IMG/VR virus record: IMGVR_UViG_3300045988_132610 | DNA length: 41,961 nt | Source of the DNA: a virus | Direction: 5' to 3' (one strand) | Part shown: positions 1-40,773 of the stretch, one piece after another | Layout: the number at the start of each line of letters is the position of its first letter | Position numbering within the stretch: position 1 is the first letter of the stretch | Program-made: the position numbers and the translations under genes | Notes under the pieces: model-generated | Told to the model about the DNA's origin: nothing | The model's input: the letters and a program-made list of their open reading frames with translations, nothing else | The model's database searches: none

Positions 1-119
1 CCATGAGCAATCCCTTGCTCCACAGGTGCAGGTTCTTCGTGATTGCCGAACCGCCGCTGAACGTGACATCGTCGCTCGTCGGCTCCACACGCCCCTGCAC
101 ATCCTCGATGACAGCCGAA
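1..119. repeat. terminal direct repeat, copy 1 (identical to 41843..41961)
   Basis: Base-by-base comparison: ccatgagcaatcccttgctccacagg...gatgacagccgaa is present at both ends. The match starts at 41843 and runs to the last base. Confidence 0.95.
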
Positions 120-1880: not shown

Positions 1881-2642
1881 TCACGCCTCCTGAGAGGAGG
1901 CGGAATCGGCGGAATCGGTCGGCATGGTATCCGTCCTGTCCTCGCCAGACACGTCGGACACCTTATCTTTCACGCTCTTCACCGCCTCGTCAATCGCCGT
2001 CAAAGCGTCATTCGCATGTGATTCCACGACCGTCTTCGATTCGGTGATGCTGTCGGCCACCGCCGCCGCCTGCACGCTCGCCGCCTGCGCACCGGCAGCC
2101 GAAGCCTGCGCCGCATTAGCCGCCTGAGCAGCCGCAGCCGACTGCGACTCCACCACGGCGCGAGTATCAGTCAAATCCTCCAGAATCTGGGAAGCCACCG
2201 TCTTGGCCTGACCCTCCGGATAAAACACCATCTGACCCGGATTCGCCGCTGACATGGCCTGCGCCTCGGACAGGGAAGAAGCAAGCAGATACGTCAGCGC
2301 CGTACCGGAATTGGGTGCCGGGGCCAGAGTACTCGCGTCCACATCGACCAGATCGGCGAACGCCACGGGCGTGCTCGAATTCGGTACCTGCACGCATCGG
2401 ACGAAACGCCAGGCGTCCGGCGATTCGCCTACCGTCACCTCGTAGGCGAACGTGTTGTCGGTCGGCGTAACATCAACGGTGGCAGTGCCGGTTTCCGACA
2501 GTCGCACGTCGAAAGAGTCGCGCACGACGATGCGCTTGCCGACCTTGAACCGGCCTGTCGGCACCACATGCACCAGTTCGCCGGCCAAAACCGCGACGCC
2601 ATCGGCGCTTGGATGGCCGAAATCGAAATTAATCTGAGTCAA
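1881..2642 (-). CDS. tail fibre-like protein with an Ala/Gln-rich coiled-coil C-terminal half
   Basis: 253-aa ORF. The C-terminal part (AVVESQSAAAAQAANAAQASAAGAQAASVQAAAVADSITESKTVVESHANDALTAIDEAVKSVKDKV) is typical of fibre shafts. It lies in the tail-tip region. Confidence 0.6.
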   Translation of the reverse strand: MTQINFDFGHPSADGVAVLAGELVHVVPTGRFKVGKRIVVRDSFDVRLSETGTATVDVTPTDNTFAYEVTVGESPDAWRFVRCVQVPNSSTPVAFADLVDVDASTLAPAPNSGTALTYLLASSLSEAQAMSAANPGQMVFYPEGQAKTVASQILEDLTDTRAVVESQSAAAAQAANAAQASAAGAQAASVQAAAVADSITESKTVVESHANDALTAIDEAVKSVKDKVSDVSGEDRTDTMPTDSADSASSQEA

Positions 2643-2754
2643 AACATCCTCCTAGAAAACAGGGATATGGAACAATGAGAAAACCCACACACACGCCCAC
2701 CCAACGGCAACATGACGATGTGTGGGATTATCCAACGGAATTGGAAAGGGACCA

Positions 2755-3627
2755 ATGCTTTTCGACACATTCGTAACCACCGTTTGGAAACCCTCATGTT
2801 CGAAACTCCGCGAATGCACCAAAGTAGGCTACGAAAGCGCCCTGAACTGCCATATCCTCCCGCAATGGAGCGGAAGGGACATGGACTCGATCAGCATGGC
2901 GGACATCGAATCATGGTTGGACTCCTTCGATAAGCCGGGAGCGGCACGCAAGGCCTACGCGGTGTTCCGCTCGATACTGCGACTCGCGTTCAAACGCGGT
3001 TTGACCGACAACGACGTGACCAGACGCGAGATACGCCTGCCACGACTACGGCACTACGAGCCGCAAGTACTGTCCGCGTCGGAAGTACGCAGACTGTTGA
3101 AAGGCTTCTACGGGCATCCGCTCGAAGCATGGCTATTGGTGTCCGTGTGCGCCGGATTGCGACGCTGCGAAAGCGTGGGCGTCGAATGGGCCGACTTGGA
3201 CTTGCGACGCGGCACCGTCACGGTGAAAAGGTCGGTGCAATGGGTGGCAGGCCATGAGACCGTCACCGAACCGAAGACCGATCTGAGCCGACGAACCGTC
3301 GCATTGCCACGGTTCGCGGTCAAACGATTGGCGGAACTACGCCACGGCACAAAGACCGGCCGACTGGTCGGCAGTCTGAACGCGAACCAAGTGGCGAACC
3401 ACTACCGCAGTTGGTGCAGGCGCATGAACCTGCCCTGCGTGCCTCCACGCAACCTACGCCACACGTTCGGCACGTTGGCGATCAAGGCCGGAACCGACAT
3501 CAGCGTGGTCGCACGACAGCTCGGACACTCCGACATCCAAACCACCGCACGGTATTACCTCAAGCCCGATCTGAGCGTCCTCAAGGACATGCAGAAAGCA
3601 TGGCAGAAACTCATATTGACCTGCTGA
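2755..3627 (+). CDS. tyrosine site-specific recombinase, candidate shufflon invertase (Rci-like role)
   Basis: ORF 2722..3627. The likely start is ATG 2755 (MLFDTFVTTVW...) after GGAAAGGGA. Catalytic signature: CAGLRRCES (Arg), NLRHTFGTLAIKAG (HxxR), LGHSDIQTTARYY (His, Tyr). It is antiparallel to the surrounding structural genes and ends 5 nt before the first crossover site. Confidence 0.85.
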   Translation: MLFDTFVTTVWKPSCSKLRECTKVGYESALNCHILPQWSGRDMDSISMADIESWLDSFDKPGAARKAYAVFRSILRLAFKRGLTDNDVTRREIRLPRLRHYEPQVLSASEVRRLLKGFYGHPLEAWLLVSVCAGLRRCESVGVEWADLDLRRGTVTVKRSVQWVAGHETVTEPKTDLSRRTVALPRFAVKRLAELRHGTKTGRLVGSLNANQVANHYRSWCRRMNLPCVPPRNLRHTFGTLAIKAGTDISVVARQLGHSDIQTTARYYLKPDLSVLKDMQKAWQKLILTC

Positions 3628-3631
3628 TAGC

Positions 3632-3643
3632 ATTCCGTAACCC
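3632..3643 (+). repeat. crossover site A (ATTCCGTAACCC)
   Basis: Shares a 12/12 match with the inverted site in the tail-fibre gene and an 11-bp core with site B. Confidence 0.85.
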
Positions 3644-3945
3644 TTGAACAGCAGCCTTTCCCATTTTTCGGCAATGTCCTGCGATTACAAAAACACAAAG
3701 GGCTTGTAATCGCGACAGTCAGCGCAAGTCCAAAATCCACATCGAATAATCTTTACGATGTGGCCGTTAATGAGACCATTGCGAACGGATTCAGACCATC
3801 ATCGCATGACGCAATCATGACTTCAGTCAGTCATGGTGGTGACGTTGCATCAGCGCTGATCCATCCAGATGGGCGAATCAGCATGTTCGGGACGTTGGCT
3901 GTCGGCCACCATTACCTGTGGCAAGGCGTATGGCCGACCGAATAG
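3634..3945 (+). other. silent tail-fibre C-terminal cassette A (103 codons, no start codon)
   Basis: Reading TCC GTA ACC from site A gives SVTLEQQPFPFFGNVLRLQKHKGLVIATVSASPKSTSNNLYDVAVNETIANGFRPSSHDAIMTSVSHGGDVASALIHPDGRISMFGTLAVGHHYLWQGVWPTE then a stop. The ORF track shows only its distal part (3760..3945). Confidence 0.8.
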
Positions 3946-3947
3946 CT

Positions 3948-3960
3948 TTCCGTAACCCAG
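3948..3960 (+). repeat. crossover site B (TTCCGTAACCCAG)
   Basis: 13/13 match with the inverted site at 4584..4596. It lies 2 nt after the stop of cassette A. Confidence 0.85.
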
Positions 3961-4242
3961 CAATGGAAACCGCCGTATACGAACGACCGCCTCACTCTAT
4001 GTCGCGTCGGACGTATCGTCACGGTCAACGGCAACGTCAAGTTCACCGTCAGTGGACAGCAGAACTACTCGACGGCGAATGAGACCATCCCTGAAGCGTT
4101 CCGCCCACTCGCCGATATGAGCATCATTGCGTTCCCGTCCTGCGGTTTCAGCCTGATTGTCGAGCGTGACGGGAGGGTGAAGATGCTTGGCGACCCGAAA
4201 TCCGCCTACTCCACGGCGCACGGCTGTTGGATGGCGGCCTAG
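3949..4242 (+). other. silent tail-fibre C-terminal cassette B (97 codons, no start codon)
   Basis: Reading TCC GTA ACC CAG from site B gives SVTQQWKPPYTNDRLTLCRVGRIVTVNGNVKFTVSGQQNYSTANETIPEAFRPLADMSIIAFPSCGFSLIVERDGRVKMLGDPKSAYSTAHGCWMAA then a stop. Its TAG (4240..4242) overlaps the TAG of the expressed gene (4239..4241) in a CTAG palindrome. Confidence 0.8.
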
Positions 4243-5084
4243 ACGAATTCCACACCATCAGGCACCGGAATGATCCTCTGGAAGCATTGGACGATATCGG
4301 ACGAGCCTACGTCTCCGATAATCGTCACCGACCCGTCAGTATTCCACCTCGCCTGTTTGCCATACGCGACGCCGCTCACGTTCGCGACGCACCCAAGATT
4401 GACCGTTCTGGAGGGCTTCACGCCCGCTTTGAACAGCCAGACAGTGAAATCGCCTACTTTCACGGTGCTTCGGAACGAAGCCAGGTCCACGAAAATCAGA
4501 CCGTCTTTGACCGTGATGGTGCTCGAAGCGCCATAAGCAGCCGGAACGAACGATGAGGTGTCCTGAAATTTCAGTTGGCATGTCTGGGTTACGGAATCCC
4601 ACAAAGCCCACCTCGGCGTGAACAGGCGTACCGGCGTGCCGACCGTGATGCCGTCAAGCGGGATACGCCACAACGGCATGTACGCGTCAACCGCACCGGA
4701 CAATATCTTCCCTGACGGAATGGTCGGGTCAGCGGCAGCCGTCGCGTTCGGCGTGCCCTTCAACACGACCAACTCCACCAGCTCATTACCGGTCTTGGAA
4801 TCTCGATGGTAGTGCGCGCAAATGATGTCATTGCGTTTCATGCCCTGCGACCCGTTGGAGATCGTCACCGATTCCGCCGCCGTGATATGCCAGTCCAAGC
4901 CTTGTATCGACGCGCAACCAGTACCGATGGTGGCCTTGTTCGCACTGCCCATCGTGCACTTGAACGCGTCGCCCCAGTCGAACACCACGTCAGACTTCGA
5001 GAACTTGGCCTGATGGATGATCGCCTTGTCCTCGCTTGAGATGTGTGCAACTCCGGCCTTGCCGTCAACCAGTTCGATAGTCAC
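4239..5084 (-). CDS. tail fibre / receptor-binding protein with an exchangeable C-terminal domain (currently expressed variant)
   Basis: ORF track gives 4239..5105. The probable start is GTG 5084, 7 nt after GAAGGAGG, in a GTGA overlap with the stop of 5081..5332. The constant part ends ...RLFTPRWALWDSVT; the variable part is QTCQLKFQDTSSFVPAAYGASSTITVKDG...IIPVPDGVEFV. Confidence 0.8.
   Translation of the reverse strand: MTIELVDGKAGVAHISSEDKAIIHQAKFSKSDVVFDWGDAFKCTMGSANKATIGTGCASIQGLDWHITAAESVTISNGSQGMKRNDIICAHYHRDSKTGNELVELVVLKGTPNATAAADPTIPSGKILSGAVDAYMPLWRIPLDGITVGTPVRLFTPRWALWDSVTQTCQLKFQDTSSFVPAAYGASSTITVKDGLIFVDLASFRSTVKVGDFTVWLFKAGVKPSRTVNLGCVANVSGVAYGKQARWNTDGSVTIIGDVGSSDIVQCFQRIIPVPDGVEFV
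4584..4597 (-). repeat. crossover site C inside the expressed tail-fibre gene (ATTCCGTAACCCAG on the minus strand)
   Basis: Plus strand reads ctgggttacggaat. On the coding strand it encodes D-S-V-T-Q, with the Ser at about codon 164. Confidence 0.85.
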
Positions 5085-5332
5085 TGTCCGACCTCCTTCA
5101 ACCATGCTTCAAACGAAGCGTCATCCTTCTGCATGAACGTCATGAAAAACGTATTGCATTTGGAACACAATTCATAGATGTCAGGCGGCACATCATCCGC
5201 GATGCGGGTCGCCTTGCCAGCCGAATAGCGGCGCACGGTGAACCATTCACGCGCCTCAGTGTCACCAGCGGCGACATAAGCGGTCTTGCCGCACTTGTCG
5301 CACACGTACTTCGAGTAACCGTCAGATTTCAC
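5081..5332 (-). CDS. small zinc-ribbon protein
   Basis: 83 aa with CDKCGK...CSKCN (two CxxC pairs). It is translationally coupled to both neighbours. Confidence 0.65.
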   Translation of the reverse strand: MKSDGYSKYVCDKCGKTAYVAAGDTEAREWFTVRRYSAGKATRIADDVPPDIYELCSKCNTFFMTFMQKDDASFEAWLKEVGQ

Positions 5333-6888
5333 TAGCCTATCCTTTCAAACGTAAAACAACCAAGCGAAGGCAACTGCCTCCACGTGCCGCCGAAATCAAC
5401 GGAAGGGTTGACACCGGTCGTGTTCTGAACCACATAGCCGATTGGGAACACGACCCTCCCGGAAGCGCCGTCGCCGACATGCGCGCTGATGACACCATCC
5501 ACGCTCACGATCGTGGAACCGTCCACCCTCACGCCGCCCAGCACGTCCGTGGACGCCACAGGCAGCGTGTAGGCGTTCGCGCCCCGTTCGACCGAAGCGA
5601 GCTTCGACCGCTCGTCATCGGTCATCATGCCCGACTTCGCACTGTCGGCAACGGTCTTGGCCGCATCGGCGACGTTCTTCGCGTCCTCGGCGGTCTGATT
5701 CGCCTTGCCGATCTGCGCCGCGAAACCGGAAGCCGTCCTGTTCGCCGCCTCGGCGACCTGCCTGACGGCATCCAAATCCTCGGAAGCGACCTCCGCGTTG
5801 ATCGTGCCGCCTGAAATCGACAGGCCACGGCCAGCCGTCAAAGACACGCCACCACCAGTCGAACCCGAAGACGAAGAGGAAGAACCGGAATAGTTCGCGT
5901 TCGCCGACTGCACCGGCAGTCCGACCTCGAAAGTCGAAGCCAAAATCCCGGAATCGATTTTCACGATCCGCTTCGTCACCACGGCGGTGACGTTGACGCC
6001 GGAAGCATGATCCGCCGCAACAATCTTGTCATCCACGCGCAGACCGTCGCCGACCTCATCGGACAACGACACCTCGACCGAACCACCGGTCTGCAATTCC
6101 TGCAGATGCTTCTTCGTCTCGGATTGCAGCGTGGACAAATCCGCGTTGGAATAGTCGTATGTGGCGCATACTTCGTCAGCGCCTACGAGCGTCTGTGTCT
6201 GACTCACCACGCCGGTCGCGTCGGCGAAATAATTGACCACCAGACGGTTCTTGAGCTCCTGCGAGCCAAGGCCGATGAGATGATTCACCGCGCGACGGTT
6301 GGTCTCGGCCTTGAAATCCACCAAGTCGGAGTCGATCGTGTTGGTGATGATGCCGACCGGCGTGATGCCAAGCAGGATGTGATTATCCTTGGCTTGGAAG
6401 TCGAGGCGTCTGCCGCAGGATGCGAGCAGATTGCGGAATCCTGTGTAGGCGTCCACGTAGCGTGGATTCTGGAACATCCAATTCGACAGAGTGGAAGCAT
6501 CGGAGGAATCGACGGTGAACACCGAATCCAAACCGATGCGCTTCAAGAGGCTTTTGAGGATGTCAGGCAGCTTGCCGGAGACGGTCAGGTAATCCTGATT
6601 CGCGTCCGGCTGCAATATCTTCGCCGCCAACATGCCAGTCCACGATTGGCCGATCCACGTGGCCGTGGACACGCCACCGGAAACAGCCACACGACGGTCG
6701 ACGATCCGGCCGCCCACGTCACTGCCGTCAATCCAGAAATACCAGCCACGTTCAATTTCCGGCGCAGACGGATCTTCGATGGTCAGCTCGAAATCGTTTT
6801 CGTCCGTGCCGCAAGCCCAATCCAACGTCACCTGCGATACGCTCGCATGTGGCGTCAGCTTGCCGTCTGCGATGATAACGTCCGCCAT
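5332..6888 (-). CDS. tail-associated baseplate hub protein (Tal-like) with a fibre-like C-terminus
   Basis: 518 aa, lying directly after the Dit-like gene, the usual Dit-Tal order in siphoviruses. The C-terminal part has a Ser/Gly stretch, an Ala-rich coiled coil and a beta-rich tip. Confidence 0.65.
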   Translation of the reverse strand: MADVIIADGKLTPHASVSQVTLDWACGTDENDFELTIEDPSAPEIERGWYFWIDGSDVGGRIVDRRVAVSGGVSTATWIGQSWTGMLAAKILQPDANQDYLTVSGKLPDILKSLLKRIGLDSVFTVDSSDASTLSNWMFQNPRYVDAYTGFRNLLASCGRRLDFQAKDNHILLGITPVGIITNTIDSDLVDFKAETNRRAVNHLIGLGSQELKNRLVVNYFADATGVVSQTQTLVGADEVCATYDYSNADLSTLQSETKKHLQELQTGGSVEVSLSDEVGDGLRVDDKIVAADHASGVNVTAVVTKRIVKIDSGILASTFEVGLPVQSANANYSGSSSSSSGSTGGGVSLTAGRGLSISGGTINAEVASEDLDAVRQVAEAANRTASGFAAQIGKANQTAEDAKNVADAAKTVADSAKSGMMTDDERSKLASVERGANAYTLPVASTDVLGGVRVDGSTIVSVDGVISAHVGDGASGRVVFPIGYVVQNTTGVNPSVDFGGTWRQLPSLGCFTFERIG

Positions 6889-7709
6889 GGCACACCTCCA
6901 GAAACGTCAAACATGGTCAAATCGATGCCATAATTGCCGGAAACCGTCAACAGCGAATCTCCGGCCGGTATCGGCTCGAAAACATATGAGCCACTTCCAC
7001 TGCCGTTGCCGCGAACGCCCTTGTCGAAAACATCCGAAACGTCGCCGTTTTCGGCTGTCAACGTTATCGTCTTCCGCAAGCCGGTGGCCGATAATGACAC
7101 ATGACCGCCTTCCGGCACTGTCACATCAACCGCATAGGTGTTGCCGCCAATCTGGAAAGACGGGTTGACGCAAGGGCCGAAAATGACCGCAGTGAACTCG
7201 GCGGCCTTGCCGGTCGGATTATTCACCGTCAAGGCGATTTTCGACGGAGCCAAATCGGTCGGCAAGTCCAGTGGAAGGTCAATCTGCGCACCGGTGCCTG
7301 CCGTCATCGGAAAGAAATGCTGCACCGGCAGCGCGCGACGCCAGACGCCATCGCAAAGGACAATCGTGTAATCGACTTGCGCGTATTCCGGCCATGGCAC
7401 CAGACCGAGAGAAGAACCGACGACATACGCCCGCTGGAACCATTCGCCATCAACGGTCAACGTGCCTGGCGTAACGGCCTGCACGTCCGAATCGAAAGCC
7501 GTCTGAGCCACGTCCAATCTTGACGGATCCGTGGTGCGGACGGTCATTTTCGCCGTCGAAGCGTTTCTGCTCACCGATTTGATGCCGCGAGTGGCCAGCG
7601 TGTACGTCCATGCGTATCCGCGCATTTCCTGCAAATCGGCGACCCACAGACTGCCGGTGTTGAGGTCGATGACCGTGCCATCGTGCGACGTGTATTTAAG
7701 CTCGCGCAT
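6855..7709 (-). CDS. distal tail protein (Dit-like)
   Basis: 284 aa, immediately downstream of the tape measure gene. Call is by position and size. Confidence 0.6.
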   Translation of the reverse strand: MRELKYTSHDGTVIDLNTGSLWVADLQEMRGYAWTYTLATRGIKSVSRNASTAKMTVRTTDPSRLDVAQTAFDSDVQAVTPGTLTVDGEWFQRAYVVGSSLGLVPWPEYAQVDYTIVLCDGVWRRALPVQHFFPMTAGTGAQIDLPLDLPTDLAPSKIALTVNNPTGKAAEFTAVIFGPCVNPSFQIGGNTYAVDVTVPEGGHVSLSATGLRKTITLTAENGDVSDVFDKGVRGNGSGSGSYVFEPIPAGDSLLTVSGNYGIDLTMFDVSGGVPWRTLSSQTAS

Positions 7710-10700
7710 ATTTGCGGATCAACCTCCCCAAGTCACGGTCGCTGACCGTCGAATCATCGGACGCGGCGTTGATGATCGCGCCAAGATCATTGTGCAGGCT
7801 GGTTATCGCCGCCACCACGGAAGCGGTATCAACCTGTACGCTGACCTGATTGCCTGTCATCTGATTGGCTGTGGCAAACACTTCGCGTGGGATGGCGCGC
7901 CGGTTCAGCGCGTCCATGAAGTCGACGCCGTAATAGCTGGTGGCGAGCGCGTTTTCGACGTATTCGCCGCGTGCGATGCGGCCGTTGTCGAGGTAGACGC
8001 TGTCGCTGGTCGCGGTGCCTGGCGCCCATTTCGGGTCGACGTAGCCGTTGAAGGCGTAGCCTCCGTTGGCGTATCGGAATCGGTCGCCGTCGTAGAGGCC
8101 GCCGGTGGCTCCTGTCGGAATGTTGCCTGTGGCGTTTTTCGGACGGTATCCGCTGGATGAGTATGTGCCCCCTGATTCGTCGACGTAGGTTCCGTGGATT
8201 TGGAAATATTTGTCGGCGATCTGGTAGTTGCTCAGGTTGGTGAGCATGCTCATGGCGGGTGAGCCGTCTGCGTTGACGATGAATCCTTTGTCGTTGAGTT
8301 TCCATCCTTGGGTTTGGAGGAATTTGTTCATCGCATCGGAATTGTCACCTTTGAGGTAGCCTGTCTTGTCGTCGATTTTGGCTCCGTTCGCGATGGCGAG
8401 GGCGATCATGTATTGGTCGCTGTCCAGGGTGAGGGTGCCGGTTTTGGGGTCGATTTTGGCGTTTGTGGCTTGGGCGATTTTCTTCATCAGGTCGGTGTTG
8501 TCTCCGCTGATGGTGACGTGTTTGCCGTCCGGTGTTTCTTCGGCGGCGAGTTTGACCTGTTCGAATTTGGCGACGGCGTCGCCGGTGACTGTGACTTCGA
8601 TGGTTTTCGAGTCGGGGGTGTTCTGCAGGCTGTTGACGAGTTCGTCGACCGCGTCGCGTGTGAGTCCGTAGGCTTGTGCGGCGGCTTCTGCTTCCTCCGG
8701 TGTTTTGCCGAGGGATTGCATGAGTTGGGTGAACGCGTCGTGTGCCTTGTCGATGTTCGGGTAGATGTCGTTGAGGCTGTCTCCGTTCTGCGCTTGGGCT
8801 TTGGCACATTTGAGCGCCGCGTCGGCGATGTCGTTCAGGGCGCTTTGGTTCTCGCGTCCGGCTTCCGTGTTCAGGTCGAGGGTTTTGACGTTCTGACTGA
8901 TGGTGTCGTTCGCCGAGGAGATCTTGTTGGCGAGGTCGATTTGCGCGTCGGACGAGCTGATGGCGAACCCGTAGTAGGTCTGCATCGCGTCGATGACTTC
9001 GGACAGCGCGCTGGCGGTGTCGCTGACGGCGTCCGTAGTGGCACCGAACGCTTCGGCGAGGATGTCGTCGGCGCTGGCCGCTTCCTGCGCGTTGTCGGCG
9101 GATTGGCTGGCCGCGTCTGCTCCCGACAGGAGCGCCCCTGTCTTGTCGATGCTTGCCTGGGTGGATTCTTTTTCGGCCTGCGCGAGGTTGGCCGCCGAGA
9201 TTTGGCTTCCCTTGTAGCCTTTTTGGAGCTCCGTGAGGCTGTTGGCTACAACCTTGTACTCGTTGCCGGTAAACAGGCCGCCCTGGTTTGCGAGCTGGGT
9301 GCGGTAGGCGTCAAGCTCCTTGTAGACTTCGTTGACGGCGGTCTTCTCGCCTTGGATGGCTTTGATATACGTGCTGTGTTTGATGCCGACCTTGTCGATG
9401 GCCTGCCACACGTTGTCGTAGCCGGTGATGAGACGACCGAGCCAGTTGTCGGTGACCCTCGCGCCGGACGAGTCGGACAGCGCCTTCTCGTAGTGTTGCG
9501 CGGCGGAGGTCCCCTCCTGCAGGGCGTTCGACAGTTGCGTGGACCGCTCCTGGGCTTTCTGCTGTTCGGAGATGAACGCTCCGAGGACCGCCGTTGCCGC
9601 AGTGATCGCGATGCCCCACGGGCCGCCGAGCAGGTCGATGACGCTGCTGCCTACAGCCTTGAACCCAGCGGTCTTCAACTCCGCCTTGGACGCGGACGTG
9701 CCGAACGTCTCCATCTGTTCGTAAGCGCTCATCGAGGACGCCTTGAACATCTGGAATGCGGTCTGCGCGGAAGCCAGCGCGGTTTTGACTCGTTGGATCG
9801 GGTCTATCGCAAGCCCGATGTTGTTGGCCATGGTGCTGGTGCTGCTGTTGAGATTGCCTGCGGCCTTGTGCACCGCGCCGAACACGCCGGCCAGAGACGC
9901 CATGACCACGAGCGTCTGCTGCACTCCGGACGGCAAACCGGCGAACGCGTCAACCAGCGTATCCAAGCCCTGCACCATCTTGCGCAAAGGCCCCTGAGCG
10001 CCCTCGCCAACGGAAATCATCAAGGACTCCATCGAACCACTCAGATTCTCCAGATCACCCTTGAGATTGTTGTTCTTCGCAGCCGCCTGCTCGGCGGCAT
10101 AACCGCTTTCGGAGACGGCCTTCGTCCACTTGTTGACACCGGACTCGCCGGCCTCGTACAGGTAGTTCGCGGCCTTGATGGCATAGCTGCCGAAGATGGT
10201 CGCGTTCGCCTGGTTGCGCTGTTCGTCGGTCAAGCCCTTCTCGGCCTTCTGCAATTGGCCGGCGAAATTCGCCATGCCGACGAAATGGCCTTGAGCATCG
10301 TAAGCACTGATGCCAAGTTCCTTCATCGTGTTGGACGCTTTGGTGGACGGCGCGGCCAGTTTCATCAGCATACTGTTCAGCTGTGTGCCGGCCTCGGCAC
10401 CAATGGTGCCGTTCTGCGCGAACAGGGCCAGTACGCCGGTGGTCTCCTGAATGTTCATGCCGAAACTGTTCGCCTGCGCGCCGCAATTGTTCAACGCCTC
10501 GCCGAAATCGGAGACATTGCCGACGGCCTTGCCGGCGCCAGCCGCCAAAGTATCGGCCACCTGGGAAGCCTGAGACCCCTTCAGATGGAACATGCTCAAC
10601 GCGTTGGCCATGTATTCGGAGGCATCCCCAACAGCCATTCCATCGGACGCGGCCAGATTCAAAGCGCCAGACAAGCCGCCAGTGAGAATATCCGTGACGC

Positions 10701-11079
10701 TCATGCCGGCCTTGCCGAGATCATTGATCGCATCAGCGGAATCCGAAGCAGAATAAACCGTGGAAGCTCCGGCTTCGATGGCGGCGGCACGCAGCTGGTC
10801 CAATTGTGCGCCGGTCGCGTCGGTGTTCGCCTGCACGGTGCTCATCTGCTGGTCGAAGTCCGCGGCCATCTTCACCGCAGCCACGCCGAACGCGGCCACG
10901 GCCAGCCCTGCGGCGGTCATGCCACTGGCGATGAGCGCGGACTTGCGGCCGGTGTTCTCCATACCGGACGCGACCGTCTTCGCGGTGCTTCCGGCACGGG
11001 TCATCGCAGCCTCATATGAGGCTGTGTCCGCCATCAACCGGATGACGATGTTCTTGTTCTCCGCCAAAGCATCCTCCAA
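7696..11079 (-). CDS. tail tape measure protein
   Basis: 1127 aa, the largest ORF. It is Ala/Gly-rich and helical with hydrophobic segments, and directly follows the G/T chaperone pair. The track start is TTG; an in-frame ATG at 11034 is an alternative. Confidence 0.9.
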   Translation of the reverse strand: MEDALAENKNIVIRLMADTASYEAAMTRAGSTAKTVASGMENTGRKSALIASGMTAAGLAVAAFGVAAVKMAADFDQQMSTVQANTDATGAQLDQLRAAAIEAGASTVYSASDSADAINDLGKAGMSVTDILTGGLSGALNLAASDGMAVGDASEYMANALSMFHLKGSQASQVADTLAAGAGKAVGNVSDFGEALNNCGAQANSFGMNIQETTGVLALFAQNGTIGAEAGTQLNSMLMKLAAPSTKASNTMKELGISAYDAQGHFVGMANFAGQLQKAEKGLTDEQRNQANATIFGSYAIKAANYLYEAGESGVNKWTKAVSESGYAAEQAAAKNNNLKGDLENLSGSMESLMISVGEGAQGPLRKMVQGLDTLVDAFAGLPSGVQQTLVVMASLAGVFGAVHKAAGNLNSSTSTMANNIGLAIDPIQRVKTALASAQTAFQMFKASSMSAYEQMETFGTSASKAELKTAGFKAVGSSVIDLLGGPWGIAITAATAVLGAFISEQQKAQERSTQLSNALQEGTSAAQHYEKALSDSSGARVTDNWLGRLITGYDNVWQAIDKVGIKHSTYIKAIQGEKTAVNEVYKELDAYRTQLANQGGLFTGNEYKVVANSLTELQKGYKGSQISAANLAQAEKESTQASIDKTGALLSGADAASQSADNAQEAASADDILAEAFGATTDAVSDTASALSEVIDAMQTYYGFAISSSDAQIDLANKISSANDTISQNVKTLDLNTEAGRENQSALNDIADAALKCAKAQAQNGDSLNDIYPNIDKAHDAFTQLMQSLGKTPEEAEAAAQAYGLTRDAVDELVNSLQNTPDSKTIEVTVTGDAVAKFEQVKLAAEETPDGKHVTISGDNTDLMKKIAQATNAKIDPKTGTLTLDSDQYMIALAIANGAKIDDKTGYLKGDNSDAMNKFLQTQGWKLNDKGFIVNADGSPAMSMLTNLSNYQIADKYFQIHGTYVDESGGTYSSSGYRPKNATGNIPTGATGGLYDGDRFRYANGGYAFNGYVDPKWAPGTATSDSVYLDNGRIARGEYVENALATSYYGVDFMDALNRRAIPREVFATANQMTGNQVSVQVDTASVVAAITSLHNDLGAIINAASDDSTVSDRDLGRLIRKYARA

Positions 11080-14430: not shown

Positions 14431-14645
14431 TCACCATCCTTCGCACTGGTCTTCTTCTTCGGCTTCGCGGCGTCGGCGACCTTGCTCGGTTCGTCGGCCT
14501 GCACCTCGGCCACTGTGTAGCCGTGACGCTGGAAATAGTCGGACGGATCCACGTCGGTCTCACCGACGCCACCGACGAAGGTCACGCCGGCGGTGACGCC
14601 GTTGTACTCATTATTCGGAGCTTCGATTCGCCACATCATGATCAC
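14427..14645 (-). CDS. hypothetical small head-region protein
   Basis: 72-aa ORF with 4-nt overlaps on both neighbours and a lysine-rich C-terminal tail. Confidence 0.5.
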   Translation of the reverse strand: MIMMWRIEAPNNEYNGVTAGVTFVGGVGETDVDPSDYFQRHGYTVAEVQADEPSKVADAAKPKKKTSAKDGE

Positions 14646-15619
14646 CTGACCTTGATCTTACGGAGCACGCCAGCGGCCTTGGTGGCCTTCAATGCGACGC
14701 CGACCGGACCAAGTTCGACCTCGCCGCGATGCACTGCGCCCGGCTGGGTGAAGTCAGGCAGCCAGGTCTTCACGAGGGTGCCGTCGGTGGTGGTGATGCC
14801 ACAGAAGCCGTCCAGGCCGACGCGGTACGCGTACAGGCTGGTGGTGCCGTCTGAGGCGATGGGGATGATCGGATCGTTGCTGCCGGCCTTCTCTCCGGCA
14901 TCGGCGAAGAGGATGCCGCCATAGGATTCGCGGCTGATCGGACGGCCGTTCGCGTTGACGAGACCATCGATCGGCTCGCGCACGTACATGCTGGTGCGGC
15001 GCACCATGGCACGGACGCGGGCAAGAGCCTTCTTGTTGCCGACCACGATGGTCGGCGTGCCGTCAAGCAGGTCGAGGAACTCGTCGAGCGTGTCGATGGC
15101 CTTGTTGCCCTTCTCTCCTTCGAGGTCGGTCCAGTCGTAGGTGTCGGAGGTGGGCTTCATCTCGGTGCTTGAGCCAGTGAGCGCCTTGTCCAGGCCGTCG
15201 AAGGCCTTATCGTTCACACCGGTATCGCCGTTGATGACGGTATCCTGGAACAGGGTTATCGCGGCCTTCACCTTGTCGTTGATGTTGCGGGTCACCTCGT
15301 CGGATCCCTTCGGACCGATGTTCGCGAGGATGCGGTCGATCTCGAAAGCGCCGCCGAGCACGGCGAGCGTGGTGCTGTACTTCTTGGTCGTGGTAGTGCT
15401 CGGCAAGTATTCCGTGTTGATGGCGCGGAATTCGGCGGTGGGCTGGGTCTCCTGCCGACGGTAGGAGTAGTCGAGCGTCGCACCGCCTCCTGCGGGGTTC
15501 ACGGCATCATCGAAGATGAGGGAATCAAGGATGACGCTGGACTTTCGAAATTCGTCGATGACGAAAGGGTCGTAGTCTTCGAGGGCGTTGTTCTTCGCCT
15601 CTGCGAGAGTGACAGCCAT
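14642..15619 (-). CDS. major capsid protein
   Basis: 325 aa, directly after the scaffold gene, with a strong RBS (AGGAAGGAGAC). Call is by position and size. Confidence 0.75.
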   Translation of the reverse strand: MAVTLAEAKNNALEDYDPFVIDEFRKSSVILDSLIFDDAVNPAGGGATLDYSYRRQETQPTAEFRAINTEYLPSTTTTKKYSTTLAVLGGAFEIDRILANIGPKGSDEVTRNINDKVKAAITLFQDTVINGDTGVNDKAFDGLDKALTGSSTEMKPTSDTYDWTDLEGEKGNKAIDTLDEFLDLLDGTPTIVVGNKKALARVRAMVRRTSMYVREPIDGLVNANGRPISRESYGGILFADAGEKAGSNDPIIPIASDGTTSLYAYRVGLDGFCGITTTDGTLVKTWLPDFTQPGAVHRGEVELGPVGVALKATKAAGVLRKIKVR

Positions 15620-15646: not shown

Positions 15647-16204
15647 TTACTTGTAATATGCGGAAATGGCTTCGGAGAGACTGTGCGGCTTCGGGTCGCC
15701 GCCCTTGCCCTGACTCGGGTCGGGCTTGACGTTCGGCTTGTTCTGCACGCTGACGAGCTTCAGCAGGCTGTCCGCATCGGCTTCCAGCTCCTCGCGAGTG
15801 GATCCCTGCAGACGTTCCGCCAAGACCTTCGGCAATTGCTTGTCGACGGCGACTTCGTATCGCAGTGCCTTCGCGGCATTGCCGGTGTTGGACTTCTCCA
15901 GGCTGGCGATCCTCTCGCTGGCCTTTTCCGCGTCGGTCTTGTCGCGATCCTCGAACTCTTTGATTCTGGCGTTCGCGGCGGCGAGCTGTTCGCGCAGCGA
16001 CTTGTTGGCCCGGCGCTCGTTCTTGAGCGCGGTCATGACGTGTTCGCCGAGCTTCTCGTCGCCTTCGCCGCCGGTATTCGCCTGTGGGTCGGATTGCGGC
16101 GGCTCAGGCTGCGGCGGCTCAGGCTGCGGCGGCTCTCCGCCGCCCGGTTCGGCACCGGTCTCGATGGTGCGGATGCGGATGAGATTCCACCATTTCCTAT
16201 GCAT
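15647..16204 (-). CDS. capsid scaffolding protein
   Basis: 185 aa, with AAGGAG 8 nt before the ATG. It is charged and helical (LREQLAAANARIKEFEDRDKTDAEKASERIASLEKS) and sits between the MuF-like and capsid genes. Confidence 0.7.
   Translation of the reverse strand: MHRKWWNLIRIRTIETGAEPGGGEPPQPEPPQPEPPQSDPQANTGGEGDEKLGEHVMTALKNERRANKSLREQLAAANARIKEFEDRDKTDAEKASERIASLEKSNTGNAAKALRYEVAVDKQLPKVLAERLQGSTREELEADADSLLKLVSVQNKPNVKPDPSQGKGGDPKPHSLSEAISAYYK
16095..16135. repeat. 15-bp tandem repeat x2.7 (tgcggcggctcaggc) encoding PEPPQ repeats in the scaffold N-terminus
   Basis: Read directly. The protein shows GGEPPQPEPPQPEPPQSDPQ. Confidence 0.85.
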
Positions 16205-16291: not shown

Positions 16292-17305
16292 CTAGAGGAT
16301 CCAGCCGTACTTGTAGAGCATGCCCAAGGCCTTCTCATGATCATCGCCGCAGCGTGCGTAAATGGTCTCGGGCATGAGACGCGGCCTGTCGACCTTTGTG
16401 TACCGGCCGCCGTTCTTGATGAATTCCTTGGCGTATCCGGAGTCGATCATGCGTGATGCGGCGAGTCCGTGGCGCGTGGTGCCCTCGGTCGTGTACTTGA
16501 TGTTCCGCCCGTCGATCTGGGCGGTGCGGATGCCGCGTTGGGCGTTAACCAGCTGGTTGAGGTCGGCTCCGTCCGTGTAGGCTCGGGCGTTGGCCCTTCC
16601 GCCAAGGACTTTGGCGAGCTGGCCTTCGTCCAGTGAATCGAGGTATTCGTTCGGACTGGTGCATGCGTTTGCCGGTGCTTTAGGACCGGTGTAGACGGCG
16701 ATGCAGTCGCAGTGCGGATGCCTTTCGAAAGGCGTCTTGCCGCATGGCTGTCCGGCGAGGATGACGCATCTTCCGCAGCTCGGCGGTGTCAGGCCGCGCA
16801 CGTAGGTGGATTGGTAGCAGATGCCGCGAGCGGTCATGCTTGTGGCCGACCGGTGAGTGTCCGCCAGCATGGTGCGCGTCCTGAGCACCAAGGTCACGCC
16901 TATGCGGTCCATGGCCGTGTCCACCGGAGCGCCGTTGGACACGGCCCGCTTGCCGATGGTGATCGCCGTCCACATCGTGTCCACGGTATCCATGCCGTTG
17001 CCGTTCACACCGACCCACTGCCATGGGTCCGGCTTGTATTCCGGGTGTGCTGCGTTCATGTCGAAGCGTTCCATGATTTTCGGCGTCGATGCTATCGCGT
17101 CGGCGGCGGTGTGGTATTGCGCCGTGTCCAATACTCGGAAAAGTTCAGGCATCATGTCCGCGAAGGCGGCGTCGAAGTCTGGTTGCGCGTGCTTATGCCA
17201 CAGTCTGAGCACCGTCGCGGCCAGCCGGTTGCTTCGGCTGCGCAGCAGACGGTTCTGCGCCGTCGCCTCCTGCGGAAGCGTCTGCCCAGCCATCGTCGCC
17301 GCCAT
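16292..17305 (-). CDS. minor head protein, MuF/SPP1 gp7-like
   Basis: 337 aa, after the portal gene. It contains a Cys/His cluster (SCGRCVILAGQPCGKTPFERHPHCDCIAVY) typical of MuF-like proteins. The 5-prime end overlaps the portal gene by 113 nt, so the true start may lie further downstream. Confidence 0.7.
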   Translation of the reverse strand: MAATMAGQTLPQEATAQNRLLRSRSNRLAATVLRLWHKHAQPDFDAAFADMMPELFRVLDTAQYHTAADAIASTPKIMERFDMNAAHPEYKPDPWQWVGVNGNGMDTVDTMWTAITIGKRAVSNGAPVDTAMDRIGVTLVLRTRTMLADTHRSATSMTARGICYQSTYVRGLTPPSCGRCVILAGQPCGKTPFERHPHCDCIAVYTGPKAPANACTSPNEYLDSLDEGQLAKVLGGRANARAYTDGADLNQLVNAQRGIRTAQIDGRNIKYTTEGTTRHGLAASRMIDSGYAKEFIKNGGRYTKVDRPRLMPETIYARCGDDHEKALGMLYKYGWIL

Positions 17306-24540: not shown

Positions 24541-24717
24541 GGGAACAACTAGTGTCGTTGACGTGCTTTTTTTGCTGTTCCGGAGGGCCGAGTCGCAGTT
24601 GTTCCCGCACCCACCCACACACGTAGTGTGGGTGGGGAGTGCTGGGAACAGCTGGACATCGCTACTCCAGTTGTTCCGGGAACAACTCGGAACAACTGGG
24701 AACAACGGGAACAACTA
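24541..24717. repeat. iteron-like array of GGGAACAAC(T) repeats plus an 11-bp perfect hairpin; candidate replication origin or regulator-binding region
   Basis: Copies: 24541..24550 (+), 24597..24606 (inverted), 24644..24653 (variant GGGAACAGCT), and 24669..24677 (inverted, forming the palindrome AGTTGTTCCGGGAACAACT). Four tandem direct copies follow at 24678..24687, 24689..24697, 24698..24706 and 24707..24716. Hairpin: CCCACCCACAC acgta GTGTGGGTGGG at 24610..24636. Confidence 0.7.
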
Positions 24718-27015: not shown

Positions 27016-27116
27016 TCCTGGAACTCCTTTGACGTGATGTGAATATGTGTGGTGCCGTGCACGCCTTTGCATTCGTGCGGGCCGCTTGGATACGGCTACG
27101 GCGGTCGGGACTGGTA

Positions 27117-37735: not shown

Positions 37736-38911
37736 ATGGCGAACGTCACCAGATACAAGACCAGTAAGGGTGAAACCAGATACCGTGTGAGGTACCGCAA
37801 GCCGGACGGCACGCAGACCGATAAACGAGGCTTCCGCCGCAAGATAGATGCGGAGAACTGGGCGGCCGAGCACGTCACCATCGCCAAGGCAACCAACAGC
37901 TACGTGGATCCGGAAGGCGGCAAACGGCTCGTCGGAGACCTGTATGAGCAGTGGCTGAAGGAGAAATGGCCGTTTTGGAAGGAAACCACACGGGTCAACG
38001 CCACGGAAGCATGGCGACTCTACTGCGAGGCTCGATGGGCCAACCGGAGAATCGGCACCATCGCCAGCGCCGAGGTCCAGGCGTGGATCAGCGACATCAT
38101 CGCGAGCGCCGGCGCTCCATCCGTGAGCCGTCCGTACCAGACCATGCTCGGCATCTGCCGCATGGCCGTCCGGGACAAGCTCATACTCGACAATCCATGT
38201 GAAAACGTTGAACTCCCCAAGCTGCCGAGGCGCAAGAGCCGTCGCGTGTACCTGACCATATCCCGGCTGCGCGCATTCGCCGACGAATGCGCCAGAGGAA
38301 AGCATCTGGGAGCGGAGCGGCGGGCGCTCGTGCTGACACTGGGCTTCTGCGGATTGCGCTGGGGCGAGGCGGCGGCGTTGAAGGCCCGTGACCTGGACTT
38401 CGATCGGGGAGTGCTGCATGTGGGCGGCAACCTCGTGTACGTCGGGGCACGATGGGTCGAGGGGTCGCCGAAGAACAGCGAGGAACGCGACGTGCCCATG
38501 CCTCTCATCGTCATGGAAGCGCTGAAACCGATATGCGGGGAACGCGAACCGGACGAAAGGGTGTTCCGTGATCTGCGGGGCGGCCCGATCATGAAGCAGA
38601 GCACGGCGAAGACCACAGGCTGGTGGCATCACGCGCTGGTGCGCCTGGGCTGGCCGAAGGAGGAATGGCCCACACCGCATGACCTGCGCCATACCGCGGC
38701 ATCGCTGGCCGTGCACGCCGGGGCGAACGTCAAGGCGCTGCAGCGGATGCTCGGCCACAAGAACGCGAGCATGACGTTGGATGTGTATGCGGATCTGTTC
38801 GACAGCGACCTGATGGATGTGGCCCGTCTGCTCGATGCCGCCGTGCAGGTGGAGACGGGCATGGGAGAATGTGGGCAAAATGTGGGCAAAAACGTTTTGA
38901 AGCCCGTCTGA
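37736..38911 (+). CDS. int: phage integrase (tyrosine recombinase)
   Basis: 391 aa with an N-terminal arm-binding-type start (MANVTRYKTSKGETRYRVRYRKPDGTQTDKRGF), CGLRWGEA (Arg), HDLRHTAASL (HxxR), and LGHKNASMTLDVYADLF (His, Tyr). Confidence 0.9.
   Translation: MANVTRYKTSKGETRYRVRYRKPDGTQTDKRGFRRKIDAENWAAEHVTIAKATNSYVDPEGGKRLVGDLYEQWLKEKWPFWKETTRVNATEAWRLYCEARWANRRIGTIASAEVQAWISDIIASAGAPSVSRPYQTMLGICRMAVRDKLILDNPCENVELPKLPRRKSRRVYLTISRLRAFADECARGKHLGAERRALVLTLGFCGLRWGEAAALKARDLDFDRGVLHVGGNLVYVGARWVEGSPKNSEERDVPMPLIVMEALKPICGEREPDERVFRDLRGGPIMKQSTAKTTGWWHHALVRLGWPKEEWPTPHDLRHTAASLAVHAGANVKALQRMLGHKNASMTLDVYADLFDSDLMDVARLLDAAVQVETGMGECGQNVGKNVLKPV
38869..38890 (+). repeat. tandem pair ATGTGGGCAAA x2 inside the integrase 3-prime end (candidate arm-type site)
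   Basis: Read directly. An almost identical pair lies at 39090..39111. Confidence 0.7.
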
Positions 38912-39084: not shown

Positions 39085-39089
39085 GGAAA

Positions 39090-40734: not shown

Positions 40735-40773
40735 ATCCTCTCCTTCCCGCCCCGAGTCAAGGGGCAATAGAAA

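What the first reader, a model, noticed from the sequence alone, without database searches (positions are those of the whole stretch)
2755..5084. Tail-fibre shufflon: a dedicated tyrosine recombinase, three crossover sites and two silent receptor-binding cassettes
Seen in sequence: I found the 11-bp core TTCCGTAACCC only three times, at 3633..3643 (+), 3948..3958 (+) and 4586..4596 (inverted). The inverted copy lies inside the minus-strand tail-fibre gene 4239..5084, where it encodes D-S-V-T-Q at about codon 164 of 281. Reading from each plus-strand copy in the same phase (TCC GTA ACC), a start-less ORF runs to a stop: 3634..3945 (103 codons) and 3949..4242 (97 codons). Inversion between the inverted site and either direct site would therefore fuse the constant N-terminal ~163 codons in frame to a different ~100-aa tip, giving three alternative proteins. 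A 290-aa tyrosine recombinase gene (GLRRCES, LRHTFGT, LGHSDIQTTARYY) ends 5 nt before the first site. It is the only plus-strand gene inside about 20 kb of minus-strand structural genes, and the phage has a separate integrase at 37736..38911. Established knowledge: this is the architecture of the R64 plasmid shufflon (Rci tyrosine recombinase, sfx sites, PilV tips). Functionally it parallels Mu Gin and P1 Cin tail-fibre switching, which use serine invertases. From memory, a Rin-type shufflon has been reported in Bifidobacterium prophages; I cannot tell whether this element belongs to that family. Inference: host-range phase variation with three states.
Basis: partly seen in the sequence, partly recalled or inferred. 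Interest (0 to 1): 0.9.

Follow-up and report, generated by a model that had tools for sequence, protein, structure and literature searches.

The report
Rin-type shufflon switching phage receptor-binding tips
This Bifidobacterium phage carries an intact copy of the already-described "Rin" shufflon, a small recombinase plus three 11-bp sites that flip DNA to give its receptor-binding protein one of three tips.

Summary
TTCCGTAACCC occurs exactly three times, at 3633(+), 3948(+) and 4586(-). A 290-aa arm-less tyrosine recombinase gene ends 5 nt before the first site. Two start-less cassettes follow the plus-strand sites in frame. The third site lies at codons 163-166 of the 281-aa receptor-binding protein gene.

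This is the Rin shufflon of dnaJ2-integrating bifidophages (Mavrich et al. 2018, PMC6109161). The published crossover site is TTCCCTAACCC; this one differs by one base. Its Rin is 50-56% identical to Rins at loci with the published site.

Relatives show the element flips. Two contigs that are 100% identical over 8.7 kb differ only by segments rearranged at rix sites. A contig about 99% identical to the window joins rin and rix A directly to the start of Rv3, which is the predicted inversion junction. Each of the three cassette types is found fused to Rc in some phages and silent in others. Of 85 related contigs, 15 end within 100 bp after rin and none within 100 bp before it.

Added here:
- an extended site consensus, T-R-G-N-W-core;
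- four DNA isomers giving three proteins;
- a 99.8%-identical relative showing a precise rix-to-rix cassette loss or gain.

Verdict: real and very probably functional, a new member of a known kind, of modest interest.

The parts
2755..3627 (+). rin, a 290-aa Xer-like tyrosine recombinase (invertase) with no arm-binding N-terminal domain
   Evidence: It matches Pfam PF00589 at 2e-15 plus a weak SAM-like N-domain, and phrog_1 integrase at 1e-43. Its best solved relative is XerD 1a0p at 4e-10. R136, K174, R235, H258 and Y267/Y268 are conserved in 98 unique Rins, and R232 replaces the usual His of HxxR. It is 26% identical to the phage's own 391-aa integrase.
3628..3645 (+). rix A, the rin-proximal crossover site (core 3633-3643), preceded by TAG at -5 to -3
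   Evidence: A rix lies 5-10 nt after the rin stop in most related loci that extend past rin.
3634..3945 (+). Rv1, a silent start-less tip cassette of 103 codons (SVTLEQQ...VWPTE*)
   Evidence: Five cassettes of this type were found, counting the window's own: one fused to Rc (L015) and four silent.
3943..3960 (+). rix B (core 3948-3958); the TAG stop of Rv1 forms its -5 to -3 positions
3949..4242 (+). Rv2, a silent start-less tip cassette of 97 codons (SVTQQWK...CWMAA*)
   Evidence: It matches the C-terminal part (201-293 of 297) of phrog_13141, whose N-terminal part matches Rc. It is 30% identical to Rv1. Of 47 cassettes of this type, 7 are fused to Rc, 39 are silent and 1 is neither.
4239..4595 (-). 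Rv3, the currently expressed tip (118 codons), tail to tail with Rv2 and sharing one CTAG for both stops
   Evidence: Of 36 cassettes of this type, 9 are expressed and 27 silent. It is a silent cassette in phage ctl617, where the match ends exactly at a rix.
4584..4601 (-). rix C (core 4586-4596), inside the receptor-binding protein gene, encoding W-D-S-V-T
   Evidence: WDS(V/L)T is the invariant junction in 29 diverse receptor-binding proteins, and they become unrelated after it.
4596..5084 (-). Rc, the constant N-terminal 163 codons of the receptor-binding protein (GTG start at 5084)
   Evidence: It matches phrog_9994, phrog_13141 and phrog_25635 over the N-terminal part only. A profile of 29 receptor-binding proteins matches PDB 30yz_W 'receptor-binding protein' at 6e-5. 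The gene follows the tape measure, a 284-aa ORF, a minor tail protein and an 83-aa gene.

Best explanation
This is an intact Rin-type shufflon in the tail module of a complete, circularly assembled dnaJ2-integrating Bifidobacterium phage of about 41.8 kb.

Proposed mechanism: Rin, a Xer-like tyrosine recombinase without an arm-binding domain, recombines rix sites that lie in inverted orientation. One rix sits inside the receptor-binding protein gene, at the W-D-S-V-T junction. The other two precede silent cassettes that have no start codon and are closed upstream by an in-frame TAG.

Inversion between rix C and rix B flips the two-headed Rv2/Rv3 segment, so that Rc-Rv2 is made. Inversion between rix C and rix A puts Rv1 behind Rc. 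A further inversion between A and B then becomes possible. This gives four DNA isomers and three proteins: the same 163-aa anchor carrying a 118-, 97- or 103-aa tip.

The likely outcome is a phage population with mixed adsorption specificities.

Shown here: the anatomy, the integrity of all parts, the DNA-level conservation of rix, and rearrangements exactly at rix in near-identical relatives.

Inferred: that Rin is the catalyst, that this particular genome flips, that the tips set host range, and that core position 5 lies in the strand-exchange region.
For: Anatomy.

Same architecture as the published Rin system. That system has an 11-bp rix TTCCCTAACCC, a 168-aa Rc, Rv cassettes of 95-100 aa and a flanking arm-less tyrosine invertase. 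Inversions were seen there in virion and lysogen reads. The window's attP core matches the published dnaJ2 core at 33 of 35 bases.

Rearrangement in relatives:
- L012 and L013 are 100% identical over 8.7 kb, except for two segments rearranged with breakpoints inside rix.
- L009, about 99% identical to the window, reads rin stop, rix A, then the start of Rv3. This is the predicted A x C junction.
- L027 and L077 show the B x C isomer, with Rc-Rv2 expressed and Rv3 silent. L015 expresses Rc-Rv1.
- All three cassette types occur both fused to Rc and silent.

Selection on the DNA itself: 272 exact cores inside shufflons and none in 589 kb outside, with only 15 one-mismatch variants.

Assembly breaks: 15 of 85 contigs end within 100 bp after rin, and none of the 85 within 100 bp before it.

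The catalytic residues of Rin are conserved.
Against: No reads are available for this window, so flipping of this particular genome is not shown.

The exact predicted Rc-Rv1 and Rc-Rv2 proteins are absent from the 15-billion-protein collection.

No experiment anywhere links Rin to the inversions or the tips to host range; the literature search found only the 2018 description and a 2022 report in Eggerthella.

The receptor-binding fold could not be confirmed. The AlphaFold model had pLDDT 31, and the cassette profile found no solved relative.

No promoter-like site was found for rin.

Contig ends at rix could also come from mixtures of strains.
Confidence: 0.9

Rival explanations
1. The arrangement is a relic or a module-exchange hotspot. 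Under this view the conserved 11-17 bp serve as short homologies for recombination between different phages, and this genome no longer flips.
For: Cassettes and Rc modules are clearly exchanged between lineages. Rc 90-94% identical to the window's sits next to a Rin only 54% identical (L104; L111 and L155 share that Rc and the C-type rix). L010 has a rin 100% identical to the window's but an Rc only 94% identical. No reads are available for this genome.
Against: L012 and L013 are 100% identical apart from rearrangements bounded by rix, which argues for events within one lineage and not for mixing. Rin is intact with its catalytic residues. The core is invariant even at synonymous positions, and exact copies are confined to shufflons. 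Assemblies break right after rin. The published system flips in reads.
Confidence: 0.05
2. Inversion is real but is catalysed in trans by another recombinase, such as the phage integrase or the host XerC/D. Rin would then have another job, for example dimer resolution.
For: The 2018 paper reports a second bifidophage inversion locus with no adjacent recombinase. Rin scores below the curated cut-off of every NCBIfam model and looks generically Xer-like.
Against: In the related loci that extend beyond rin, a rix nearly always lies 5-10 nt after the rin stop, across Rins down to 50% identity. That tight linkage is what a dedicated invertase would show. The phage integrase has its own attP with arm-type repeats elsewhere in the genome.
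Confidence: 0.04
3. The three 11-mers are a by-product of a conserved peptide motif, or chance, and the 'cassettes' are not coding sequence.
For: The core does encode a conserved S-V-T.
Against: The silent copies are not translated, since an in-frame TAG lies two codons upstream in 287 of 429 cassettes, yet they keep the exact nucleotides. The cassettes stay open for 80-129 codons (427 of 429; two have 61) and are homologous to tips that are expressed elsewhere. Only 2 of 100 simulated sequences had any 11-mer three or more times within 1 kb.
Confidence: 0.01

Closest known systems
Rin shufflon of dnaJ2-integrating Bifidobacterium breve and B. longum prophages Bb423phi1, Bl157phi1 and Bl30698phi1 (Mavrich et al. 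2018, PMC6109161); also reported in Eggerthella lenta clade 1 prophages (PMC8778435)
   Same: The gene order is the same: Rc-Rv, silent Rv cassettes, then a divergently oriented rin. The recombinase is an arm-less Xer-like tyrosine recombinase. An 11-bp asymmetric rix precedes each cassette. The constant part is about 165 aa and the tips about 100 aa, and the tips are mutually dissimilar. The host phage group is the same, with a dnaJ2-type attP core.
   Different: The core is TTCCGTAACCC, not the published TTCCCTAACCC (Val codon in place of Leu at the junction). Its Rin belongs to a separate cluster, 50-56% identical to Rins at loci with the published core. There are three cassettes and three sites, against up to five cassettes in the published loci. 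No rix follows the 3' end of the expressed gene; instead Rv2 and Rv3 form one two-headed invertible segment.
Bifidobacterium phage PMBT6 (MH444512, host B. thermophilum) and Siphoviridae sp. ctl617 (OY725605)
   Same: These are the closest deposited phage genomes. Their Rins are 88% and 80% identical to the window's, the rix core is identical, and they have 3 and 7 sites. PMBT6 has the site topology (one + site, two - sites) that an A x C inversion of the window would give.
   Different: Rc is only 38-42% identical. In both records rin is annotated just as 'integrase' and the cassettes as hypothetical proteins.
R64/IncI1 plasmid shufflon (Rci, sfx sites, pilV tips); comparison from established knowledge
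   Same: Both use a tyrosine recombinase, multiple short asymmetric sites, a constant N-terminus fused to alternative C-terminal exons, and two-headed invertible segments.
   Different: The target there is a conjugative pilus adhesin, not a phage receptor-binding protein. The site sequence is different. Rin is Xer-like and gave no Rci-specific match.
Gin/Mu, Cin/P1 and Min/p15B tail-fibre inversion systems; comparison from established knowledge
   Same: The biological logic is the same: a phage switches the C-terminal part of its host-recognition protein by site-specific DNA inversion.
   Different: Those systems use serine invertases, and the classical ones need an enhancer and Fis. Rin belongs to the tyrosine recombinase family PF00589.

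Membership tests
Rin shufflon (Mavrich et al. 2018) | A tyrosine-family recombinase without an arm-type N-terminal domain flanks the cassette array and is distinct from the phage integrase | tested here: met
   Rin is 290 aa, matches PF00589 and aligns end to end with the 290-aa XerD. The separate integrase is 391 aa and 26% identical.
Rin shufflon (Mavrich et al. 2018) | A short asymmetric 11-bp rix (published as TTCCCTAACCC) lies upstream of every Rv cassette and inside the receptor-binding protein gene, and is rare elsewhere | tested here: met
   There are three exact copies of TTCCGTAACCC, one base different from the published site, in the expected places and nowhere else in the window. 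In relatives there are none in 589 kb outside shufflons.
Rin shufflon (Mavrich et al. 2018) | A constant N-terminus of about 168 aa (Rc) is fused at rix to alternative C-termini of about 95-100 aa (Rv) that have no start of their own and are mutually dissimilar | tested here: met
   Rc is 163 aa and the Rv cassettes are 118, 97 and 103 aa. Rv1 and Rv2 are 30% identical, and Rv3 is not detectably similar to either.
Rin shufflon (Mavrich et al. 2018) | The recombinase is homologous to the published Rin proteins | tested here: inconclusive
   It is 50-56% identical over its full length to recombinases that flank arrays carrying the published TTCCCTAACCC core. The Bb423phi1, Bl157phi1 and Bl30698phi1 sequences themselves were not in any collection I could query.
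Rin shufflon (Mavrich et al. 2018) | Inversions with breakpoints at rix occur between otherwise identical genomes or reads | tested here: met
   This was met in close relatives: L012 versus L013 at 100% identity, and the A x C junction in L009 at about 99% identity. It cannot be tested for the window itself because no reads are available.
Rin shufflon (Mavrich et al. 2018) | Rc resembles the receptor-binding protein of lactococcal phage 1358, and Rv resembles the head domain of the TP901-1 receptor-binding protein (HHpred in the paper) | tested here: inconclusive
   The AlphaFold model was unusable, with pLDDT 31. A profile of 29 receptor-binding proteins matched only PDB 30yz_W 'receptor-binding protein' at 6e-5, over the N-terminal 70 residues. 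The cassette profile had no PDB match.
Rin shufflon (Mavrich et al. 2018) | The host element is a dnaJ2-integrating bifidophage | tested here: met
   Window 38956-38990 matches the published dnaJ2 attL core of Bb83phi1 at 33 of 35 bases. Close homologues of the receptor-binding protein are named from B. pseudocatenulatum, B. adolescentis, B. longum and B. bifidum.
R64-type plasmid shufflon (Rci/sfx/PilV) | The switched protein is the PilV adhesin of a conjugative type IV pilus | tested here: not met
   The switched gene lies in a phage tail module, after the tape measure and minor tail protein genes, and its homologues are phage receptor-binding proteins.
R64-type plasmid shufflon (Rci/sfx/PilV) | The recombinase is of the Rci family and acts on 19-bp sfx sites | tested here: inconclusive
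   The NCBIfam matches are Xer-type or integron-integrase models, all far below their cut-offs, and none is Rci-specific. I do not know whether the library holds an Rci model. The sfx sequence is known to me only from memory.
Serine-invertase tail-fibre switches (Gin, Cin, Min, Pin) | The invertase is a serine recombinase of the resolvase/invertase family | tested here: not met
   Rin matches PF00589 (tyrosine recombinase) only and has the conserved R-K-R-H-Y residues.

The most novel reading that the evidence does not exclude
Two readings go beyond the 2018 description, and the evidence does not exclude either.

First, rix may really be a site of about 18 bp, T-R-G-N-W-TTCC[G/C]TAACCC-W-G, built like R64 sfx with one conserved arm plus a crossover region. 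Its -5 to -3 triplet would then do two jobs: TGG (Trp) in the expressed gene, and TAG, the stop that silences each stored cassette. Core position 5 (G or C) would lie in the strand-exchange region. It is uniform within an array, but it does not follow Rin phylogeny, since the B. indicum locus has a G core with a C-like Rin. It would therefore define compatibility classes that keep co-resident prophage shufflons insulated from each other, while cassettes still move between classes over evolutionary time.

Second, the 99.8%-identical L208 and L209 genomes carry one extra cassette exactly between two direct rix sites. This suggests that Rin, or short-homology recombination, also deletes or inserts cassettes, which bears on the open question of how direction is controlled.
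Probability: 0.3. Interest if true: 0.45.

Novelty: new member of a known kind. Interest (0 to 1): 0.3.

Why it matters
Bifidobacteria are key members of the infant and adult gut, and no lytically propagating bifidophage host pairs are established. A switchable receptor-binding tip is one plausible reason.

This window adds an intact, complete and circular phage genome with a minimal three-site version of the system. The survey around it shows that the Rin family is abundant: 237 IMG/VR stretches encode close relatives of this Rin alone. About 46 cassette types at 70% identity are shared across Bifidobacterium species.

In practice, such loci break metagenomic assemblies and are annotated as 'integrase plus hypothetical proteins', which hides host-range variation. 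The three-site layout would make a convenient substrate for testing how an arm-less tyrosine recombinase favours inversion over deletion.

Tried and rejected
- AlphaFold2 on the 281-aa receptor-binding protein, with 36 close homologues as the alignment, gave pLDDT 31, so no fold search was run.
- The receptor-binding protein alone had no match among solved structures. A profile of 10 cassette representatives had none either. Pfam found nothing for Rc or the cassettes.
- An exact look-up of the predicted Rc-Rv1 and Rc-Rv2 fusion proteins found neither in the collection.
- The promoter scan of 2400-5400 found no sigma-70-like site, and terminator-like sites were at the chance level.
- No tRNA genes and no Rfam families were found in the window.
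- The published Rin phages are not in the phage collection, so direct comparison was not possible.
- I considered that G-type and C-type cores mark two co-evolving Rin-site specificity pairs. I downgraded this because B. indicum L006 has G cores with a Rin nearer to the C-type cluster, and L129 mixes both core types.
- I considered the R64 shufflon and serine invertases as families for this element and rejected both as memberships.
Full report
**1. The observation**

The 11-mer TTCCGTAACCC is present exactly three times in the window, at 3633-3643 (+), 3948-3958 (+) and 4586-4596 (-). No further copy appears when one mismatch is allowed. In 100 first-order Markov simulations of the window, only 2 contained any 11-mer three or more times within 1 kb.

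Reading TCC GTA ACC from each copy gives open frames that all start with Ser-Val-Thr:
- 3634-3945, 103 codons (Rv1);
- 3949-4242, 97 codons (Rv2);
- 4595-4239 on the minus strand, 118 codons (Rv3, the currently expressed tip).

The recombinase ORF 2755-3627 stops 5 nt before the first site.

The tail gene most likely starts at the GTG at 5084. AAGGAGG lies 7 nt upstream, and the start overlaps the stop of the preceding 83-aa gene as GTGA. Public gene calls give the same 281-aa product.

**2.

Rv2 and Rv3 are convergent and share one palindromic CTAG for both stop codons. No rix lies between them. The B-C interval is therefore a two-headed invertible segment.

Enumerating inversions between oppositely oriented sites gives four reachable DNA isomers and three proteins (inference from the map):
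- S0 is the window as assembled.
- B x C gives S1, in which Rc-Rv2 is expressed.
- A x C gives S2, in which Rc-Rv1 is expressed.
- A x B then interconverts S2 and S3.

An alignment of 243 unique site contexts from the window and related loci shows that conservation extends beyond the 11 bp. T is at -5 in 99% of sites, A or G at -4, and G at -3 in 100%. C, G or T is at -2 and A or T at -1. After the core, A or T is usual at +11 (88%) and G is commonest at +12 (69-72%).

The -5 to -3 triplet is TGG in the expressed gene, where it is the Trp of WDSVT. It is TAG before silent cassettes in 287 of 429 cases, an in-frame stop two codons upstream. So each stored cassette has no start codon and is also closed by a stop that is part of the conserved site.

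**3. The proteins**

Rin matches Pfam Phage_integrase (2e-15) plus a weak SAM-like N-domain. It aligns over its length with the 290-aa XerD (1a0p, 4e-10). It is below the curated cut-off of every NCBIfam model, and the best of those are Xer-type.

In 98 unique Rin sequences, R136, K174, R235, H258 and Y268 are invariant. Y267 is Tyr in 94 of the 98. The first His of the HxxR motif is Arg (R232; Gln in 4 of 98).

The phage has a separate 391-aa integrase at 37736-38911, 26% identical to Rin, with an extra N-terminal region.

Rc matches the N-terminal halves of three PHROG families of unknown function. Rv2 matches the C-terminal end of one of those families, phrog_13141. This directly ties a silent cassette to the C-termini of full-length proteins.

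A profile of 29 diverse receptor-binding proteins matches the N-terminus of PDB 30yz chain W, 'receptor-binding protein', at E = 6e-5. The gene follows the tape measure (7696-11079), a 284-aa ORF, a phrog_538 minor tail protein and an 83-aa gene. In the 29-sequence alignment the proteins are alignable up to an invariant W-D-S-(V/L)-T and unrelated after it.

**4. What it is**

[quoted passage not shown] 2018, PMC6109161). That system has:
- a tyrosine invertase gene, rin;
- 11-bp rix sites, TTCCCTAACCC;
- a constant Rc of 168 residues;
- Rv cassettes of 95-100 residues that are 6-30% identical to one another;
- inversions at rix seen in virion and lysogen reads.

It has also been reported in Eggerthella lenta prophages (PMC8778435).

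The window's site differs from the published one by one base, G for C at position 5, which changes the codon from Leu to Val.

The window itself is a circular assembly: bases 1-119 are identical to 41843-41961. It carries at 38956-38990 a 33-of-35 match to the published dnaJ2 attL common core, flanked by paired AAAATGTGGGCA repeats. It therefore belongs to the same phage group. Close homologues of its receptor-binding protein are named from B. pseudocatenulatum, B. adolescentis, B. longum and B. bifidum.

**5. Evidence that the element flips**

I fetched 85 loci through Rin (5 from genomes, 80 from IMG/VR, where 237 stretches encode relatives). I fetched loci with the published C-type core through a DNA pattern.

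(a) L012 and L013 are 100% identical over 8.7 kb. The only differences are one 289-bp segment that is inverted and moved and one 656-bp segment that is moved. All junctions fall in 12-24-bp overlaps that contain rix. This is the result expected from two successive inversions.

(b) L009 is about 99% identical to the window. It reads rin stop, GATAGCA, TTCCGTAACCC, then AGACATGCCAACTGAAATTTCAGG..., which is the start of Rv3 in plus orientation. The match to the reverse complement of window 4521-4597 is 100%.

(c) L027 and L077 have the B x C isomer, with Rv3 silent in plus orientation and Rv2 fused to Rc. L015 has Rv1 fused to Rc. L013, L062 and L080 have the S2/S3 topologies.

(d) I extracted 429 complete cassettes, of which 427 have 80-129 codons (two have 61). 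They fall into 46 clusters at 70% identity. Counting the window's own copies, the split between fused to Rc and silent is:

| Cassette type | Fused to Rc | Silent |
|---|---|---|
| Rv2 | 7 | 39 |
| Rv3 | 9 | 27 |
| Rv1 | 1 | 4 |

(e) The exact core occurs 272 times inside the shufflon regions of these loci and never in the 589 kb outside them. Only 15 one-mismatch variants occur inside. The third codon positions are therefore held by selection on the DNA, including in copies that are not translated.

(f) Of the 85 contigs, 15 end within 100 bp after the rin stop and 24 within 1.5 kb. On the upstream side the figures are 0 and 5. This is the pattern expected when assemblers meet several isomers, although mixtures of strains could contribute.

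**6. Two further points**

First, L208 and L209 are 99.8% identical to the window and have the same layout, plus one extra cassette between rin and Rv1. That cassette is bounded by a degenerate rin-proximal site (TTCCGTACCCC) and a perfect one. The window corresponds to a precise deletion from site to site, or L208 to a precise insertion. Recombination between directly repeated rix sites therefore happens at least on evolutionary time scales. This bears on the question raised in the 2018 paper of how deletion is avoided.

Second, Rin proteins fall into one large cluster in which every locus has G-type cores (67 sequences, including the window) and several clusters with C-type cores that are 50-56% identical to the window's Rin. 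The B. indicum locus has G cores with a Rin nearer to the C-type clusters, and L129 has four C sites and one G site. I infer that position 5 lies in the strand-exchange region. There, partner sites must match each other, but the protein need not read the base. This is untested.

Rc modules 90-94% identical to the window's also occur in C-type shufflons (L104, L111, L155), so modules are exchanged between the two classes.

**7. Comparison with known systems**

- The window meets all the structural criteria of the Rin shufflon. Two criteria stayed inconclusive. Direct alignment to the published Rin sequences was not possible because they were not in any collection I could query. Fold-level similarity to the lactococcal receptor-binding proteins could not be tested because the AlphaFold model failed at pLDDT 31 and the cassette profile had no PDB match.
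- It works like the R64 shufflon but is not a member of that family: the target is different and the recombinase is Xer-like.
- It parallels the Gin, Cin and Min systems in function but uses a tyrosine recombinase, not a serine recombinase.
- The closest deposited genomes, PMBT6 and ctl617, carry the same G-type system. In both, rin is annotated only as 'integrase' and the cassettes as hypothetical proteins.

**8. Verdict**

The element is very probably active. However, it is a new member, a G-core variant, of a system published in 2018.

Still unshown anywhere are catalysis by Rin, the cleavage positions, how direction is controlled, and that the tips change host range. The minimal three-site layout of this complete genome would be a convenient substrate for those experiments.

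Noticed in passing
window 1-119 and 41843-41961: The first 119 bases are identical to the last 119, so the contig is a circular assembly of a complete phage genome of about 41,842 bp. The minus-strand late operon wraps round the ends, continuing from the ORF at 767-1267 into the ORF at 41339-41944 and the endolysin gene at 39610-40779.
   Followed up: partly
window 38867-39110: This looks like attP. The 35-bp core at 38956-38990 matches the published dnaJ2 attL core of Bb83phi1 at 33 of 35 bases. It is flanked by paired 11-bp repeats (AAAATGTGGGCA) at 38867-38890 and 39086-39110, which are likely arm-type integrase binding sites. The left pair overlaps the 3' end of the integrase gene.
   Followed up: partly
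window 24597-24716: AGTTGTTCCCG occurs three times, at 24597 (+), 24677 (-) and 24706 (-), just beyond the 3' end of the DNA primase/polymerase gene (24715-27072, minus strand). It could be an origin or operator-like repeat set.
   Followed up: no
window 16095-16135: There are three tandem copies, 15 bp apart, of a unit containing TGCGGCGGCTC, between the major head protein gene (14642-15619) and the portal gene (17193-18650).
   Followed up: no
window 5081-5332 (-): A conserved 83-aa gene lies between the minor tail protein gene and the receptor-binding protein gene. It has two Cys-x-x-Cys pairs (CDKCGK...CSKCN), matches phrog_28750, and is translationally coupled to the receptor-binding protein gene by a GTGA overlap.
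   Followed up: no
L208:5453-5731 and L209 (Logan SRR33527863, ERR12815752): These genomes are 99.8% identical to the window but carry one extra silent cassette between rin and Rv1. The rin-proximal rix next to it is degenerate (TTCCGTACCCC). The window equals a precise deletion between the two direct rix sites.
   Followed up: yes
L036:6879-10170 and L158:1251-3992: These cassette arrays are flanked by a rin gene at both ends, with no Rc between them. Either they are real double-rin loci or they are assembly chimeras joined at rix or at shared cassettes.
   Followed up: no
L033 and L035 (both from IMGVR_UViG_2877182016_000001): One 83.7-kb contig holds two copies of the phage region 42,453 bp apart. 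The copies are 98-99% identical but have different shufflon layouts. This could be a tandem double lysogen or a concatenated assembly.
   Followed up: partly
L129:5305-6840; L006 (B. indicum KCTC 3230); L104, L111, L155: L129 mixes four C-type rix sites with one G-type site. B. indicum has G-type rix but a Rin nearer to the C-type clusters. Rc modules 90-94% identical to the window's sit in C-type shufflons next to a Rin only about 54% identical. Together these show mosaic exchange between the two classes.
   Followed up: partly
window rin residue 232 (codon at 3448-3450): Throughout the Rin family the first His of the tyrosine-recombinase HxxR motif is replaced by Arg (Gln in 4 of 98 sequences). 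The phage's own integrase keeps the His (PHDLRHT).
   Followed up: partly
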